Part shown: piece after piece, positions 2,270 to 63,670 of the stretch | Layout of the letters: every line of letters begins with the position of its first letter | How positions within the stretch are numbered: position 1 is the stretch's first letter | Origin: Octopus sinensis | Lineage: Eukaryota | Direction: 5' to 3' | Assembly: GCF_006345805.1 (NCBI RefSeq) | Contig: NC_043011.1 | Location: 33,554,464-33,618,463, forward strand | DNA: 64,000 nucleotides | Translations under genes and position numbers: made by a program | The notes under the pieces: model-generated | The model's input: the letters and a program-made list of their open reading frames with translations, nothing else | Told to the model about the DNA's origin: nothing | Database searches by the model: none

Positions 2270-2760
2270 ATGGCACTCAATAATAACAAATCATATCATA
2301 TTCTCATGGATGATTTGAAACATTGCAAAGAATAAAGATCAAAATAGATTCTTTAAAACAGACAGTTCGGAGATTTAGTGAAGATATTGGGATGGCATTT
2401 GGGATAGAAACGTGTCGAGTTTTAAATCTGAAAGGAGAAAATATTAAAGAAATTATGAAAACAGGTAAATACACAAAGTTATATATAATTAGATTTAACA
2501 GATTTGAAAATGACGATAGAAAAGTGATATGATGGAAATTTTTAGAAGAGAATTCTTGAGAAGGTTAACAATTATTGCTTAAATTAATTAAATGATAAAA
2601 ATAAGACTAGCTATTGAGCTATGCGCCATATTTCTTTTGAGATATTGTGGAATAATCCGAAAATGGAATCAACTAGAGAAGGTTGGATTAAATAGGAAAA
2701 CTCGTAAAACAATTACCATAAATATAGATTTATGTGACGTTAATAAGATCTATTTAAATT
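2270..2760 (+). pseudogene. Decayed reverse transcriptase fragment of an R4/Dong-like non-LTR retrotransposon
   Basis: Frameshifted peptides HILMDDLK, DSLKQTVRRFSEDIGMAFGIETCRVL and LLRYCGIIRKWNQLEKVGLNRKTRK resemble the R4-clade HLLFMDDLK...FS.DIGM.FG..KC...DRKTRK motifs. Confidence 0.75.
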
Positions 2761-2894
2761 TAAGTCTCTGGTCGATCATAAAACCTATGACTCAAAAGAC
2801 CGAAGATTTACTCGGTTTTGATAGCATATAAGCGACGGAGATCGGAACGCTACTCATGAGCAGGTCTGTTGCCAGTTCTATATCTTTACCTCTA

Positions 2895-3171
2895 TTATTC
2901 TTTTACTTGTTTCAGTCATTTGACTGCAGCCATGCTGGGGCACCGCTTTTAGTCGAGCAAATCGACCCAAGGACTTATCCTTTGTAAAGCCTAGTACTTA
3001 TTCTATCGGTCTCTTTTGCCGAACCGCTAAGTTACTGTGACGTAAACACACCAGCATCAGTTGACAAACACAGATACATTCATACACACATACATACATA
3101 CATACATACATACATACATACATACATACATACAGAATAAATACATACATACATATATATATATGTATATA

Positions 3172-3367: not shown

Positions 3368-3589
3368 TTTTCTTTTTTGTAAAGTCAGGTACTTATTCTA
3401 TCCGTCTCTTTTGCCGAACCCCTAAGCTACTGGGGCACAAACACACCAACACTGGTTGTCAAGCGGTGGTGGGGGTGCAAAATCAGACGCAAACACACAC
3501 ACACACACATACACACACACACACACAGATATATGTGATTTCAGCATGCGGTGATGCGGTGACCGTCTAATTAGGACATGCTTGTTCTT

Positions 3590-3639
<50 letters not shown>

Positions 3640-3656
<17 letters not shown>

Positions 3657-3798
3657 CGTCGCCTTTTCTTTCTGCAGAGGAGCGTATATTCAAAACGTGA
3701 GAGACTCTCCATTCTATTTTTCCAGAGCGTAAACCTAATACACTCTGTTTGTTTGTCTTTTCATCTCGTCGTCGTATTTTTTAATCTTTCGCCCTATA

Positions 3799-6409: not shown

Positions 6410-6612
6410 ACGGGAAGGTTTACGAAAATAAACACAAGACGAAGGCAGGTGGAGTACAAACAAACAAATGTATTAGTATGGCGCTCAGGAATAGAAACAG
6501 AACAGGTCTTTTACGTTTCGAGCCTGCGCTCTTTGACAGAAAGATACACAGAAAAGAAACAAAGAGAGAAACAAGGAGAGAAAAAAATGCGTGTAGGAGC
6601 TAACGGTCTATC
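6410..6612 (-). mobile_element. Short hammerhead-motif element (family H1) between (TA)n tracts
   Basis: Reverse complement of 6508-6543 reads CTTT CTGTCAA A GAGC GCAG GCTC GAAAC GTA AAAG. Homologous to copies at 3640, 7350, 16040, 57845 and 62567. Confidence 0.7.
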
Positions 6613-6613
6613 A

Positions 6614-6981: not shown

Positions 6982-7059
<78 letters not shown>

Positions 7060-7060
7060 G

Positions 7061-7094
<34 letters not shown>

Positions 7095-7122
7095 AAATAT
7101 GTTTGGATTAATGACTCCCCAT

Positions 7123-7154
<32 letters not shown>

Positions 7155-7349
7155 GGGGAGTCGTTAATCCCAACATATTTTTTTCTCTTGCCGTTTTCTC
7201 TCTATCACTCTCTGTCTTTATCTCCCTCTTTCACTCTCTCTCTTTCTTTCCATCTTTCTCTCTCTCTTCCTCTCGCTCTTTCTCTCTCTCTTTCTCTCTC
7301 ACTCTCTCTTTCTCCCTCCCTCCCCCTGTCTCTCTACCCCTTCTCCATT

Positions 7350-7476
7350 TTCTCCCTCTCATCCTTTTCTATCGATGATCACAGGCTCGAAACGTCAAAG
7401 ACTTTTCCATTTGTCCCAAGCATTAAACTAATACACCTGCTTGTTATTCCCACACCTGTCTCTGCCTTTTGTTTGT
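7350..7476 (+). mobile_element. Short hammerhead-motif element (family H1)
   Basis: CTTTT CTATCGA T GATC ACAG GCTC GAAAC GTC AAAG at about 7364-7400, followed by (TA)n. Confidence 0.6.
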
Positions 7477-12004: not shown

Positions 12005-12410
12005 AAGGCAGCGAGCTGGCAGAATCGTTAGCACGCCGGGCGAAATGCCCAGCAGTATTTCGTCTGTTGCTACGTTCTGAGTTCAAATTCCTCCGAGGTC
12101 GACTTTGCCTTTCATCCTTTTGGGGTCGATTAAATAAGTACCAGTTACGCACTGGGGTCGATATAATCGACTTAATCCGTTTGTCTGTCCTTATTTGTCC
12201 CTTCTCTGTTTAGCCCCTTGTGGGTAGTAAAGAAATAGGTATTTCGCCCGTCGCTATGTTTTGAGTTCAAATTCCACAGAGGTTGACTTTGCCTTTCATC
12301 TTTTCGGTGTCAATAAATTAAGTGCCAGTAAAACACTGGGGTCGGTGTAATCGACTAGTCCCCTCCCCTCAAAATTTCAGGCCTTGTGCCTATAGCAGAA
12401 AGGGTTATTA
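12005..12410 (+). mobile_element. SINE family C, with a second partial unit in tandem
   Basis: Head AAGGCAGCGAGCTGGCAGAATCGTTAGC. The core GACTTTGCCTTTCATC...GATAAATTAAGT occurs twice. Confidence 0.85.
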
Positions 12411-14792: not shown

Positions 14793-16039
14793 TACAAGTC
14801 AGACAGATGGAAGAATTCTCAGTCACAGAGAAACTTCTTGAGCTCTAACTGCAGAAACATAGAGAAAATTATTATGGTTTACTCGGTGTCAATTGAAGAA
14901 GCGTTATCTCTCTAAATATCACTCTATTTCAGAGCTTTATCTTCGTTCAGCTCTTACTCTCTTATTTCGCCATCCTTTTCTCTTTCACTTTCTTCTGTTC
15001 GTCTTAATATATCTCTGTCTACTCGCCTGACTGCCTGTCTCACTCACTGGCCGTAGGCTATTTCTCTCTCTCTTTTTCTCTCCTATTCCCCTTCTCTCTT
15101 TCTCTGCCTCTCATTATGATAAAATTGCTCTAAATACATAATTTGTTAATCAAAGACAAGACGATTACTGCTTGAATACCGTTGATGCATCAAGACAGGG
15201 TTAAACAAACAATAACAGTTCATTTTTAAATGGAGGAGTCTTTAGAGCCTTTAACAAAATGCTTTGGTGATATTTGTTCAGCTTCTCCAAGTTCTGAGTT
15301 CGAATTCCGTCCAGATCAACTTCACCTTTCATCCTTTCGGGGTTGATAATGCACCATTCCAGGACAGAGCATCGCTAGAGACGCGTGGACATCGGGAGAG
15401 GTGCCTTGTGGTATTTGTTCCATTTCTTTACCTTCAGTTCTGAAGTGGGAGATTTAACTCTTCATCCGGTTTAACACTACCATCTGAAACCTTGAGTATC
15501 TTTCGCTGAATGTGCATTTGTGGAAAGCATTCAGGTAGAGCTTAGGTTTGAGGGTAACTTCGTTTGTTCAACCCATCAGTTTCAGAGTCCTCGAAAAAGA
15601 TTAAAATATTATGTATCATGGACGCTACCCATTCTTCCATGAGTAAACCATAAAAAAATCACAAAACCTGTGTTACATATTCTTTTCTTTTAAATACAGT
15701 GATACATACACACACATGTACAGCGCGTGTTCACAGGCACATGCACATGCGCACATATATGTGTATGACACAACTTCTTCCTCTTCCGGTCATTTAAGCA
15801 TACTTTAACAGTATATTAATTTTCAAGCAGAGTTCATGTTTTTAACGCTTGTGATATAGTCATATTGAATGGTACTGCCAGGTGTCGAAACCATAAAGAC
15901 AGGCAGCTGATGATAGGAATATATGCTTGCTGCATTTGTTGTCTGTGATCTTTTGCAAATGGTGTTCTCGTTGTTCCAAGTTGTCCTTCGTAGGGTTAAT
16001 TTTGTTAAAGGATTCTTAGTCTCTTGGTTTAATTCAGAC

Positions 16040-16205
16040 ACGTTTTTTTCTCCTCTCCAGCATTTTTCTCTCCTCATCTTTCCTTTCTGCAGAAGAGTGT
16101 AAGCTCGAAACGTTAAATACTTCTTCCATTGTTCCTGACTGTTAACCTTATAGACCTTGTTTGTTGTTCTTTCACCAAGCCTTAATGTTTTCTTTATGTT
16201 TGGAC
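16040..16205 (+). mobile_element. Short hammerhead-motif element (family H1)
   Basis: CTTT CTGCAGA A GAGT GTAA GCTC GAAAC GTT AAAT at about 16083-16118. Confidence 0.6.
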
Positions 16206-16606
16206 CACATATAATTATATATCTGTCAGTGTATGAATCTATGTGTGTGTGTATAAACATATATTTTTCGATCGAACAAATAAACTCTACTATACGCATT
16301 GAGTACTATTTACCGTTTGTATTCTCAAACGTATTCTCACAAAATACATATGTATATACATGCATACATCCAAACAATTATTTATATGGCTGATTGTAAA
16401 TGTGTGCACATTTTCTCCTGGAATAGGAAGGTTGTATGAATGAGAAGTGTCAATACACCTAACATACTGAAGACTGCTGATTGCAAGGAAGAGGGTGAGA
16501 GAGAGTGAAGAAGAAGGATAAGTGGAAAAGGAGGGGAAGGAGGAGAGGGAGGGGAGAGAGGAAGAAATCCTACCACTTAATCGTATTTGGATTAGGTAGC
16601 AAAAAT

Positions 16607-24567: not shown

Positions 24568-25050
24568 AAGGCGGCGAGCTGGCAGAAACATTAGCACGCC
24601 GGGAGAAATGCTTAGCCGTATTTCGTCTGCCGTTACGTTCTGAGTTCAAATTCTGCCGAGGTCGACTTTGCCTTTCATCCTTTCGGGATCGATAAATTAA
24701 GTACCAGCTACGCACTGGGGTCGATATAATCGACTTAATCCGTTTGTCTGTCCTTGTTTGTCCCCTCTGTGTTTAGCTCCTTGTGGGTAGTAAAGAAATA
24801 GTTATTTCGTCTAAGAAGGCGGCGAGCTGGCAGAAGCGTTAGCACGCCGGGCGAAATGTGTAGCCGTATTTCGTCTGCCGTTAAGTTCTGAGTTCAAATT
24901 CCGCCGAGGTCGACTTTGCCTTTTATCCTTTCGGGGTCGATAAATTAAGTACCATCTACGCACTGGGGTCGATATAATCGACTTAATCCGTTTGTCTGTC
25001 CTTGTTTGTCCCCTCTGTGTGTAGCCTTTTGTGGGCAATAAAGAAATAAG
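24568..25050 (+). mobile_element. Head-to-tail dimer of SINE family C
   Basis: Two near-identical full units start at 24568 and 24816. Confidence 0.9.
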
Positions 25051-25652
25051 AAGTGAACACTTTATGGAGCAGGTAAAAGAAGGGCCAGAGAAGGGGGCAC
25101 ATATCGTAAGAATGGCCTAAGACCTTGGTACCGGCTTTGTCAACAGTGTCGATCTCATCGGTCACAGATGGTTTGCTGTGGCAATGGGTCGAACCTCTTT
25201 CTTAGATCAAACTATATTTAGCTTTTAATCTTTTACCTTTTACTTGTTTCAGTCATTAGACTGCGGCCATGCTGGGACACCGCTTTAAATTTTAGTCGAA
25301 CGAATCGACCCCAGTACTTCTTTTTAAGCCTGGTACTTATTTTAGCCGTGCCACTCAGGGGACTGAACCCGGAACCATGTGGTTGGGAAGCAAGCTGCTT
25401 ACAAAATACAGCATATAGATAGGAAAATGTAATCACATGAGTCGAAACCGCGTTGCCGTCTACGATTCTTGGCCGAAAACGATAATGTAGGAATGTGACA
25501 TAGCGCTTTCCCTATCGCTAAATACACAATCCGTTTGGTTTGTGAATCCTTGGCGAAATAAATCGATTTTATGTATCATTCTGTATTTATAGAAACATAA
25601 GATCTTTTGCAATAATAATAACAAACTAAAAACCCGTAACAATAAAAGGAAT

Positions 25653-35239: not shown

Positions 35240-36005
35240 ATTCTTTCGACAATAGATACAAGGCCTGAAATTTTGGGGTGGTGGGGGGGGGGACGAGTCG
35301 ATTATATCGATCCCAGTGCTTCACTGGTACTTAATTTATCGATCTCGAAAGGATGAAAGGCAAAGTCGACCTCGACTGAATTTGAACTCAGAACGTAGCG
35401 ACGGATGGGATGCCGATAAGCATTTTGCTCAGCGGAATAACAATACTACCAGTTCATCGCTTTACGTTCTGAGTCCAAACTCCGCCGAGGTCGATATTGC
35501 CTTTCATCCTTTCGGGGTCGATTAAATAAGTACCAGTTACGCACTGGGGTCGATGTAATCGACTTAATCCCTTCGTCTATCCTTGTTTGTCTCCTCTATG
35601 TTTACAGTCCTGTGGACAATAACGAAATAACTATAGATTAATTTTGCCTTGATTTTTCTCTTCCAACTTAATTAAAACTATTGCGAATTATTCATAAAAA
35701 TATTATTACTACAAACTGTTTATTTCATGATTTTATGTCCCCTCTATATTTAGCCCCTTATGGGCAATAAAGAAATAAAATAAGGAAATAATAAGGGTTT
35801 CAAAATTTGGCACACGACCAGCAATGTAAGGAGGGGTTAAGTCGATTACATCGACCCGCATTGCTCAACTGGTACTTATTTTATCGACCCCGGAAAAGAT
35901 GAAAAGAAACTAGGTCTTGGCTGGATTTGAACTCAGAACAGAATGCCGAACGAAATGCAGCTAAATATTTTGCCCAGCATGCTAACGATTCTTCCACCGC
36001 GCCAC
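35240..36005. mobile_element. Cluster of SINE family C copies in both orientations
   Basis: Core on - (about 35300-35400 and 35840-35990) and on + (about 35460-35630). Confidence 0.8.
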
Positions 36006-36845: not shown

Positions 36846-37036
36846 CTTACCATGTTGGTACCGGTTCTTGATTTATTGACGCCTGGGAATAAAAGGCAAA
36901 TCTGACCTTGGCGTGATATGAACTCAGAACCCAAAGAGTGAGAGCAAATGCGTCAAGGCTTTCCTTCAACACTCTTACGATTCTACTAATTGGCCTTGTT
37001 ATTTAATTAAAAGATAATGGGTTAGACACAAGACTA

Positions 37037-37640
37037 AAGCGGCGAGCTGGCAGAAACGTTAGCACGCTGGATGAAATGCTGTCTTTATGTTCTGAGTTCA
37101 AATTCCGCAGAGGTTGACTTTGCCTTTCATCCTTTCGGGGTCAATTAAATAAGTACCAGTTACGCATTGGGGTCGATGTGATCGACTTAATCTCTTTGTC
37201 TGTCCTTGTTTATCCCCTCTATGTTTAGCCCCCTGTGGGCAGTAAAGAAATAAGAATTGGTTGCGCATCTGAGAAAAAATTCTGAGCGGCGTCTGGCTCA
37301 TTACATTCTGAGTTCAAATTCCACCGAGGTCAGCTTTGCGTTTTAACCTTTCGGTGGGTGGCATTATAAAATAAGTGCTCGTGGTGCACTAATGCCGCTG
37401 TAATCGGTTAACATGCTCACCCTAAAAATTTCTGGCCGTGTACCAAAATTATAAAGAATTGAGGCTCAAGACTGAGTATTTTTAGGGGAGAGCTATAGTT
37501 GAAGCCATCGATTGGTACTTTATTTTATCGCCCCCTCCCCTCACAAAGAATGAAAAGCAGGTTGACCACGGCGAGATTTGAACTCAGAACGTAAAGTGCT
37601 TGTACAATTACTTTAAAATATTATTCTCCGACGCTCAAAC
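37037..37640. mobile_element. SINE family C cluster
   Basis: A near-full unit at 37037-37256 plus older fragments. Confidence 0.8.
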
Positions 37641-46178: not shown

Positions 46179-46603
46179 GGCGCAGGCGTGGCTGTGTGAT
46201 AAGAAGTTCGATTTCCAACCACTTAGTTCCAGGTTCGATCCCACAGCGTTGTACCTTGGGCAAGTGTCAAAGCCTTGTGGGTGGATTTGGTAGACGGTAA
46301 CTGAAAGAAACCCGTCGTATATGTATGTATGTATGCGTGTGTGTGTGTGGTGTGTGTGTGTGTGTGTGTGTGTGTCCCACTACTGTTTGACAACCGGTTT
46401 ACGTCCCTGTAACTTAGTGGTTTGGCAAAAGAGATCGATAATTCTATCGATCTCTTTGCCAAACCACTAAGTTACAGGGACGTAACAGGGAAGTATGAGG
46501 CTTTACCAAAAAATAATAAGCACTTGGGGCTATTCGTTCGACTAAAATTCTTCAAGGCGATGTCCTGGCATGCCCGCAGTCTAATGACTGAAACAAATAA
46601 AAG
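46179..46603 (+). mobile_element. SINE family B with internal fold-back inversion
   Basis: Contains an inverted repeat at 46399-46485. Confidence 0.85.
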
Positions 46604-46979: not shown

Positions 46980-47024
46980 TGTCCGGAAATCTTTCGTCAC
47001 ACACCTGTGACCTCTTCAGCGACA
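46980..47024 (-). ncRNA. Type I minimal hammerhead ribozyme, near intact
   Basis: Reverse complement: UGUCG CUGAAGA G GUCACA GGUG UGUGAC GAA AGAUUU C CGGACA. Canonical core, 6-bp stem II, and stem I with one bulge. Confidence 0.7.
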
Positions 47025-47329
47025 CTTTTCGTTTTCGTGTGTGCTCTTGCTCCACTTACTCCATTACACTTACTCCAATATTAAATCTTCTATATTAATC
47101 TATATTAATCAATTTTCTACAGCAGCGATTGAAAATACTATTTTACTAAGTAAACAGTTGTCATAAATGCCGCCATTTCACCGAAGCACAGTGGTTTTAA
47201 ATCATCAAGTGACTGGTGCACTTGCATCACGATTCGTCGTAATTTTTTTTTTTCCAAAAAACCTCAAAGCCTTAATCAGAGTGGAAAATTCCCGTTTTAG
47301 AAGCGGAAAGCAAGTCTAAATATATTTTT

Positions 47330-57658: not shown

Positions 57659-57844
57659 TATTATATATATGTAATATATATATATATATATTATATATAT
57701 ATATTATATATACATATACAGATATATTATATACATATATAGATATACATATATATATATAATATATATATATATATTTAATATATATTTTTATATATAT
57801 ATATATATATAATATATATATACATATATATATACATTGAGAAT

Positions 57845-58010
57845 TTAGAATAAACAAAAGACGAAGACGGGTGTGTAAGCAAAAAACAGATGTATTAGTT
57901 TAACGCTCGGGAAGTGAGAAAGTCTTTTACATTTCGAGCCTACGCTCTTCGACAAAAAGGAACACAGAAATAAACAGGGAGAGAAAATAGAAAAAGCTTT
58001 AGTGGCCACA
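57845..58010 (-). mobile_element. Short hammerhead-motif element (family H1)
   Basis: Reverse complement of 57922-57959 reads CTTT TTGTCGA A GAGC GTAG GCTC GAAAT GTA AAAGAC. Adjacent to a long (TA)n. Confidence 0.7.
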
Positions 58011-62566: not shown

Positions 62567-62660
62567 ACGGGAAGCTTTATGAAAATAAACAAAAGACGAA
62601 GGCAGGTGGAGTACAAACAAACAATTGTATTAGTATGGCGCTCAGGAATATAAATAAAAC
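62567..62660 (-). mobile_element. 3' half of the family H1 element (lacks the hammerhead)
   Basis: Nearly identical to 6410-6492 and flanked by (TA)n. Confidence 0.8.
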
Positions 62661-63082
62661 ATATATATATATATACAAACCTAAGCTTGCATATATGTGT
62701 GTGTGTATATGTACGTATGTGTGTGTATGTCTGTGTGTTTAAGACGGTGCTCCAGCATAGCCGCAGTCAAATGACTGAAACAAGGAAAAATTAAACGAAT
62801 GTATTTATACACACACAAACACAAACACACACTCACTCACAAACACACACACACGCACGCACACACACTCACAACACACACACACACACACGTCGCTTGT
62901 ATACATTCGTTCAGTTACCAAAAGGAGCGCTTGCAATGAAAGAAACTTGTAATGTAATCTTGTAATCTTTCCTTCATTATTTGCGTTTATATTAAAACCT
63001 CTCTTATCCTCTCTCTCACTCTCTCTCCTCCAATCAGGCATAGAAACAACGTTTACACGAGCAATTGAAACAAGAACCAAAC

Positions 63083-63417: not shown

Positions 63418-63650
63418 AAGGCGGCGAGCTGGCAGAAACGTTAGCGCGTCGGGCGAAATGCTTACCGGTATTTCGTCTGTCGTTACGTTCTGAGTTCAAA
63501 TTCCGCCGAGGTCGACTTTACTTTCCATCCTCTCGAGGTCGATAAATAAAGTACCAGTTACGCACTGAGGTCGATGTAATCGACTTAATCCCTTTGTCTG
63601 TCCTTGTTTGTCCCCTCTATTTTTAGCCCCTTGTGGGCAATAAAGAAATA
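63418..63650 (+). mobile_element. SINE family C (intronic)
   Basis: Full consensus unit within (TATC)n. Confidence 0.9.
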
Positions 63651-63670
63651 TATCTATCTATCTATCTATA

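What the first reader, a model, noticed from the sequence alone, without database searches (positions are those of the whole stretch)
6410..6612. Five-copy family of ~200-bp elements with a non-canonical minimal hammerhead (CUGUCGA/CUGCAGA)
Seen: copies at about 3668(+), 6508(-), 7364(+), 16083(+) and 57922(-) give the by-eye consensus CUUU CUGUCGA A GAGC GUAG GCUC GAA ACGU A AAAG. That is stem I CUUU/AAAG, stem II GAGC/GCUC and palindromic ACGU stem III. Position 6 is U in three copies and C in two, never the canonical A. Most copies abut (TA)n or (CT)n. Inference: a Penelope-terminal-repeat-derived or retrozyme-like family that either tolerates loss of A6 or uses the fold as an RT-recognition signal. 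Each individual copy carries extra mutations and may be dead.
Basis: partly seen in the sequence, partly recalled or inferred. Interest (0 to 1): 0.72.

Follow-up and report, generated by a model that had tools for sequence, protein, structure and literature searches.

The report
Penelope hammerhead with fixed U6 core
The five repeats are broken-off tails of an abundant Penelope-type jumping gene whose small hammerhead ("self-cutting RNA") motif has U instead of the normally fixed A at one core position in about 14,000 genomic copies, which likely slows or locks the cutter without stopping the element from spreading; cutting itself is untested.

Summary
Observation confirmed. The five copies, plus a sixth fragment, are 5'-truncated terminal repeats (pLTRs) of an autonomous-type Neptune-like Penelope retrotransposon (RT, zinc-finger linker, GIY-YIG). 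They are not retrozymes. In an exact 27-nt context, position 6 is U in 14,400 copies, C/G in 370 and A in 162, so U6 is the family state, not decay. Across eight subfamilies 0 of 30 constrained hammerhead columns change, against 69 of 115 flank columns; N7 and H17 vary as hammerhead rules allow. The oldest layers are mixed (U 24, C 10, A 9 of 43), and a sister element keeps A6, so U6 is derived. Copies show no 5'-end peak at the predicted cut site (about 14 against 2,661 read-through). Best reading: a slowed, likely protein-assisted hammerhead kept under selection, while insertion copies uncut RNA. Covariation support is thin (one stem I pair). Cleavage is untested, and a key paper on such variants was not available. 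The scan noted this family before in this genome, and an A6U core in another genome's Penelope elements.

The parts
6410..6613 (-). 5'-truncated pLTR copy, young C7 subfamily; fixed 3' end at 6410 joined to (TA)n
   Evidence: 95% to the 5' pLTR of full-length copy L108 over 212 nt; 40 listed genomic matches at 93-100%
6508..6543 (-). type I minimal hammerhead motif: stem I 4 bp, core with U6 (6536) and private G8A, extra A after A9, stem II 4 bp, GAA, palindromic ACGU, H17 = A (6512)
3535..3794 (+). old pLTR copy (loop GTAT subfamily), hammerhead 3668-3703 with C6, internal (CT)n expansion; 5' edge approximate
7156..7476 (+). middle-aged pLTR copy, hammerhead 7365-7400 (U6, G5A), internal CT-rich expansion
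7058..7122 (-). inverted partial copy of the 5' part of the 7156-7476 copy, head-to-head across (TA)n, an arrangement described for PLEs
   Evidence: 77% over 69 nt to 7155-7222; Craig 2021 Fig. 2 legend
16030..16209 (+). old pLTR copy, hammerhead 16083-16118 with C6 and H17 = U; edges approximate
57835..57995 (-). middle-aged pLTR copy, hammerhead 57924-57959 (U6, private C3U)
62567..62661 (-). sixth copy, 3' part only, starting a few bases downstream of the hammerhead, (TA)n on both sides
   Evidence: 93% to the 6508 copy over 95 nt

Best explanation
These are 5'-truncated terminal repeats of a Neptune-like Penelope retrotransposon whose minimal hammerhead has U at core position 6 throughout its younger subfamilies, and the motif is likely a slowed, dimer- and protein-dependent ribozyme kept under selection while new insertions are likely copied from RNA that is not cut at it. 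Shown: the link to an RT + GIY-YIG frame; partial-tandem pLTR-ORF-pLTR copies; fixed 3' end at (TA)n with variable 5' ends; U6 fixed; the rest of the motif frozen while flanks drift. Inferred: a transcript from a tandem carries two motifs about 4.2 kb apart that can pair through the palindromic ACGU; the protein nicks (TA)n DNA and primes inside the RNA about 103 nt past the motif, where the RNA itself has a short AU repeat that could pair with the target; copying usually stops after 100-600 nt, giving the short copies. U6 is predicted to lower catalysis and to favour a closed monomer hairpin (U4-G5-U6 with A15.1-C15.2-G16.2), so cutting would be late or rare.
For: Parent: 29 of 39 RT-picked loci carry the motif downstream; L117 has a 975-codon open frame with RVT_1 E 2.7e-8, a CxxxxCxxC linker and CxxC inside the nuclease motif; 662 full-length relatives, best 50-56% identical; pLTR-5'UTR junctions in L091, L108, L117. 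U6: 14,400 U, 370 C/G, 162 A, reversed-pattern controls 0; 29 of 29 motif hits in loci picked by upstream sequence alone; A6/C6 copies interleave with U6 copies on a tree built with positions 3-9 masked. Selection on the fold: 0 of 30 constrained columns vary among 8 subfamily majorities against 69 of 115 flank columns (39 of 79 in the 3' flank); N7 takes A/C/U and H17 A/C/U. Derived state: sister element keeps A6 in 100 of 100 listed matches; 5 of 5 motifs found in 80 metagenome loci of related elements have A6. Uncut template: about 14 junctions at the cut site against 2,661 read-through copies, control site 13. Literature: CUGA-turn mutants show low activity (PMC9901934); natural A6C cuts at under 0.1 per min (PMC3088659); PAc hammerhead is protein-assisted and dispensable for insertion in vitro (PMC11167929).
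Against: No cleavage data. Conservation of N7/H17 freedom fits any use of the folded core, catalytic or not. Covariation inside the family is nearly nil: of 9 pairs only stem I pair 4 changes on both sides in many rows, and that is one event shared with the sister family. No change at position 6 among the 8 majorities is expected often by chance (40% of flank columns also do not change), so U itself is not shown to be selected. The closed-hairpin fold is marginal (z-scores -0.2 and -1.6 for two young copies), fails for the C7/C17 combination, and A6 versions have other misfolds. Lack of 5' ends at the cut site is also expected if the RNA is cut and religated into a circle. Subfamilies were delimited by hand and three have only 4-8 members.
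Confidence: 0.55

Rival explanations
1. The motif no longer cuts at all; its stems and core are kept as a structural signal for the element's protein (packaging, dimerising the two pLTRs, or positioning the internal priming site).
For: Insertion did not need cleavage for PAc. No cut-site footprint in copy ends. A second lineage here spreads with U4C in about two thirds of the first 100 listed of 9,923 matches. U6 favours a closed hairpin in 11 of 12 N7/H17 combinations.
Against: G8, A9, G12, A13, A14, U16.1 and the not-G rule at 17 hold in all 8 subfamily majorities, which is the catalytic rule set. Natural A6C and U4C variants keep some activity.
Confidence: 0.24
2. U6 is fully tolerated in the dimeric or protein-bound form; the RNA is cut efficiently and perhaps circularised, and copies span the site because they come from religated RNA.
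For: Strict conservation of the rest of the motif through subfamilies whose flanks are only 54-96% alike. The circular-template model was proposed for PLEs (PMC4209133).
Against: All single mutants of the CUGA turn were low and not rescued by second mutations. Even canonical minimal hammerheads cut poorly. No 5'-end peak at the site.
Confidence: 0.16
3. The repeats are a non-autonomous retrozyme-like family that replicates as small tandem circles.
For: Most copies are short and non-coding; animal retrozymes are proposed to derive from pLTRs (bioRxiv 2026.07.22.740005).
Against: 5' ends are ragged and extend continuously into the GIY-YIG and RT frame. No tandem array of this unit in the window.
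Confidence: 0.03
4. Position 6 variants are ordinary post-insertion decay of a canonical hammerhead.
For: Each window copy is individually damaged; the oldest layers hold some A6 (9 of 43).
Against: 96% U in 14,932 exact-context copies; U in 15 of 15 members of the youngest subfamily, which lies about 2% from its majority.
Confidence: 0.01

Closest known systems
Minimal type I hammerheads (min-HHR) in pLTRs of metazoan Penelope-like elements (Cervera and De la Pena 2014, PMC4209133; read: main text parts 1-2 of 4, supplement file 2 part 2 of 3)
   Same: Type I layout, short stem I, extra base between 9 and 10.1, G10.1-C11.1, palindromic 15.2-16.2, place in both pLTRs, mostly solo copies.
   Different: U at position 6. 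All 44 of the 56 aligned motifs that I could see have A6; the only core change in the text read is U3-A8.
Neptune/Nematis clades of endonuclease-bearing PLEs (Craig et al. 2021, PMC8557442; read: introduction and passages)
   Same: C-terminal GIY-YIG with CxxC inside, zinc-finger linker between RT and nuclease, partial tandems, inverted truncated copies, microsatellite targeting.
   Different: Clade not fixed by a tree with named references; Neptune and Nematis share the linker. Hammerhead core is non-canonical.
PAc (Poseidon of Anolis carolinensis; Frangieh et al. 2024, PMC11167929; read: parts 1-2 of 4)
   Same: Fixed 3' end downstream of the hammerhead, AT-rich target, insertions span the cut site.
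   Different: PAc has a working C3-G8 core tested in vitro, and its ORF starts inside the hammerhead; here the ORF starts several hundred bases later and the RNA has a short AU repeat at the 3' end point.
Natural core-variant hammerheads A6C (phage Bcep176) and U4C (viroid) (Perreault et al. 2011, PMC3088659; read: section 8 and passages)
   Same: Change in the CUGA turn with low but detectable activity reported.
   Different: Those are single rare examples; here A6U is fixed in a lineage of at least 14,400 copies through several waves.
Metazoan non-LTR retrozymes (PMC7229834, passages; bioRxiv 2026.07.22.740005, part 1 of 5 and passages)
   Same: Type I hammerhead in a short dispersed repeat.
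   Different: Retrozymes are tandem, non-coding units; this family is the ragged tail of a coding element.

Membership tests
Penelope-like element, EN+ | single frame with RT followed by C-terminal GIY-YIG | tested here: met
   RVT_1 E 2.7e-8; GIY-YIG E 0.006, below Pfam's cut-off, motif visible and aligned; RT and nuclease in one open frame in L092 and L117
Penelope-like element, EN+ | CCHH motif with two cysteines inside GIY-YIG | tested here: met
   CxxC between the two half-motifs and two later histidines in L117 and relatives
Penelope-like element, EN+ | pseudo-LTRs from partial tandems, hammerhead in each | tested here: met
   3 of 39 RT-picked loci have pLTR-5'UTR-ORF-pLTR
Penelope-like element, EN+ | intact, currently active copy | tested here: inconclusive
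   none of 39 loci has start, RT and nuclease in one frame; about 2,000 RT candidates were not examined
Neptune clade | zinc-finger linker between RT and nuclease; microsatellite targeting | tested here: met
   CxxxxCxxC; 18 of 22 recognised 3' ends run into ATATAT
Neptune clade | RT phylogeny with named Neptune and Nematis references | not tested
   no named references among the hits
Minimal type I hammerhead | stems I and II, extra base after A9, palindromic stem III, GAAA and NUH | tested here: met
   91% of 720 cells paired against 20-49% for slid partners
Minimal type I hammerhead | core CUGANGA | tested here: not met
   U6 in 14,400 of 14,932; no Rfam hammerhead match for a near-majority copy at E up to 10
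Minimal type I hammerhead | compensatory changes in stems | tested here: inconclusive
   one pair, C-G to G-C in the sister family
Minimal type I hammerhead | self-cleavage as a dimer | not testable with these tools
   bench test; genomic 5' ends show no peak at the site
Non-LTR retrozyme | tandem non-coding units without ORF | tested here: not met

The most novel reading that the evidence does not exclude
Penelope elements repeatedly trade the catalytic A6 (or U4) for a pyrimidine that turns the hammerhead into a switch: closed and silent while the RNA is copied, opened by the element's protein or by the second pLTR. A6U would then be an adaptive, convergent brake rather than a tolerated lesion, and the frozen core would mark a role other than free self-cleavage.
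Probability: 0.2. Interest if true: 0.75.

Novelty: new variant of a known kind. Interest (0 to 1): 0.5.

Why it matters
What the hammerhead does for Penelope-like elements is open (stated in PMC8557442 and PMC4209133). This lineage changed a nearly invariant core base early, then made at least 14,400 more copies while keeping every other core base, next to a sister lineage with a canonical and a U4C version of the same stem II. That gives matched natural RNAs (A6, U6, C4) for a direct test of whether cutting is needed. Descriptor searches that demand CUGANGA miss all such motifs, so hammerhead counts in animal genomes are likely too low.

Tried and rejected
Rfam: no hammerhead family among the 150 listed of 338 window matches, none for a single young copy. 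The repeat finder was swamped by microsatellites. G8A as a spreading sub-lineage: rejected; CA at 7-8 appears in 11 of 27 copies ranked by likeness to the G8A query and 0 of 43 others, with no private linked change. Idea that sister U4C strengthens the same closed hairpin as A6U: not supported (pair probability 0.01). A6 as a young sub-lineage: not supported; A6 copies scatter over subfamilies, and two 'A6' majorities came from my enriched sampling and vanished when pattern-picked copies were removed. L125 looked like a two-pLTR copy but its upstream copy is a separate insertion. Sequencing runs: no RNA holder listed. Contigs of four runs show variants at position 7 and no row at 6, but also none at 17 where variation is known, so I give this no weight. 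No ORF of the family lies in the window. Papers: A6U with 'hammerhead ribozyme' gave one twister paper (listing only); searches listed no report of a CUGU core or of octopus PLE hammerheads; PMC11014351 had none of the mutant names; PMC13282606 does not mention ribozymes. Lunse, Weinberg and Breaker 2017 on PLE hammerhead variants is not held and was not seen; it, supplement file 1 and 12 unseen rows of PMC4209133, and the eLife mutant tables may bear on novelty and on A6U activity.

Full report
Observation. They align over about 150 nt, match each other at E 2e-4 to 5e-25, and are the only five strong hits of a covariance model (three of the five were in its training set). A sixth piece without the hammerhead lies at 62567-62661(-). 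The window is non-coding, microsatellite-rich DNA of a 2.72 Gb animal genome; that it is octopus-like is my recall of its other repeats, echoed by other scan notes, and comes from no call of mine.

What the repeat belongs to. The 30 best genomic matches to the 6508 copy share a fixed 3' end that runs into (TA)n and have ragged 5' ends. Walking upstream, longer copies pass through a pyrimidine-rich spacer into the end of a GIY-YIG frame and then an RT. Starting from the RT instead, 29 of 39 loci carry the hammerhead in sense 1.3-2.5 kb downstream; 28 of the 29 have U6 and one C6. Three of the 39 (L091, L108, L117) show pLTR, 5' UTR, ORF, pLTR, with the two motifs about 4.1-4.4 kb apart. L117 holds a 975-codon open frame with RVT_1 (E 2.7e-8), a CxxxxCxxC linker and CxxC within the nuclease motif, and has 662 relatives at E up to 1e-30, best 50-56% identical. 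These are the marks of Neptune or Nematis PLEs (PMC8557442). None of the 39 has start, RT and nuclease in one frame.

Position 6. Exact 27-nt patterns give 14,400 U, 370 C or G (mostly C) and 162 A, with reversed controls at 0. These counts favour young copies and are lower bounds. Loci picked without regard to the motif agree: 29 of 29 hits for the upstream query, 38 of 39 for the RT query. On a tree of 261 copies with positions 3-9 masked, A6 and C6 copies sit among U6 copies of several subfamilies, so in the younger layers they are mutations of U. In the two oldest layers, 43 copies give U 24, C 10, A 9, against 2% T-to-A and 6% T-to-C at six other T positions; C is favoured by the C6 queries, A is not. 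So position 6 was mixed early and U was fixed later. A sister element (its frame about 52-67% identical over the long matches) has the same stem II with a 3-base loop; its 9,923 exact matches have A6 in 100 of 100 listed, about two thirds with C4. Five motifs passed my descriptor in 80 metagenome loci of related elements, all A6, and all 44 published rows that I saw have A6. U6 is therefore derived.

Selection on the motif. After removing copies picked by a hammerhead pattern, eight subfamily majorities (n = 20, 13, 13, 8, 4, 4, 15, 70) are identical at 30 of 30 constrained columns, while 69 of 115 flank columns differ (39 of 79 in the 3' flank). N7 takes A, C and U, H17 takes A, C and U, and the loop changes; all four bases occur at N7 in the genome listing. 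The groups were drawn by hand and columns are not independent, so the Fisher P of 1e-10 overstates the case, but the old groups were found with damaged queries and still return the intact motif. That N7 is free and H17 is not G matches the published consensus CUGANGAH ... NUH. Covariation is thin: 91% of cells pair, but only stem I pair 4 changes on both sides in many rows, and that is the main/sister split.

Is the RNA cut? Every hammerhead-bearing copy spans the predicted site, 103 nt upstream of the fixed 3' end. Among young copies, 2,661 read through the site. A pattern for 5' ends there gave 52 matches; of 30 inspected, 12 were real junctions, all of the form that 14 of the 52 show. A control site gave 13 real junctions of 21. 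There is no peak. This fits PAc, whose hammerhead is protein-assisted and not needed for insertion in vitro, but also a religated circle. No RNA data could be used.

Likely effect of U6. Mutants of the CUGA turn were low in a full pairwise scan (PMC9901934, passages), and a natural A6C cut at under 0.1 per min. Folding 36-nt motifs, U6 lets U4-G5-U6 pair with A15.1-C15.2-G16.2 with probability 0.47-0.98 in 11 of 12 N7/H17 combinations, against at most 0.10 with A6; it is strongest in the youngest U7 subfamilies. This is a marginal prediction: z-scores are unremarkable, A6 versions misfold in other ways, and the sister's U4C does not show the effect. At the 3' end point the element's own RNA reads a short AT repeat before the 5' UTR, which could pair with a nicked (TA)n target; this is inference.

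Verdict. A real, derived, lineage-wide core variant of a known motif in a known kind of element. I commit to a slowed, conditionally active hammerhead with insertion from uncut RNA (0.55), against a dead structural signal (0.24) and full tolerance (0.16). I found no paper describing it, but the most relevant paper was not available. The scan has noted this family in this genome and A6U in another genome; I reached my reading before those look-ups, and did not test the other genome. Interest 0.5.

Noticed in passing
window 46980-47025 (-), C3 at 47019: Canonical-core type I hammerhead of another family (6-bp stem II); the only canonical descriptor hit in the window, 0 in 20 shuffles; about 70% relatives in L111, L095, L058.
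   Followed up: partly
L418:217 and L257-L286: Sister Neptune-like element with the same stem II; 9,923 exact matches, about two thirds U4C, one third canonical; one branch also has a U-U mismatch in stem I.
   Followed up: partly
window 46399-46485: Near-perfect palindrome built from a common dispersed repeat; its mir-3119 Rfam hit is below the gathering score.
   Followed up: no
window 12005-12246, 24568-25057, 35397-35638, 37020-37261, 63418-63659: Abundant ~245-bp dispersed repeat, one tandem dimer, likely a SINE.
   Followed up: no
L009 (oriented 2500-3160, opposite strand) and L063, L061: Pieces of other PLE families, and further hammerhead families with U3-A8 cores, lie close to family copies.
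   Followed up: no
L056: Apparent chimera: main-family hammerhead followed by the sister family's 3' tail, suggesting template switching between the two elements.
   Followed up: no
window 39358 (+) and 30964 (+): Decayed CUGAAGA...GAAA motifs that fail the stem test; no relatives for the motif part among fetched loci.
   Followed up: partly
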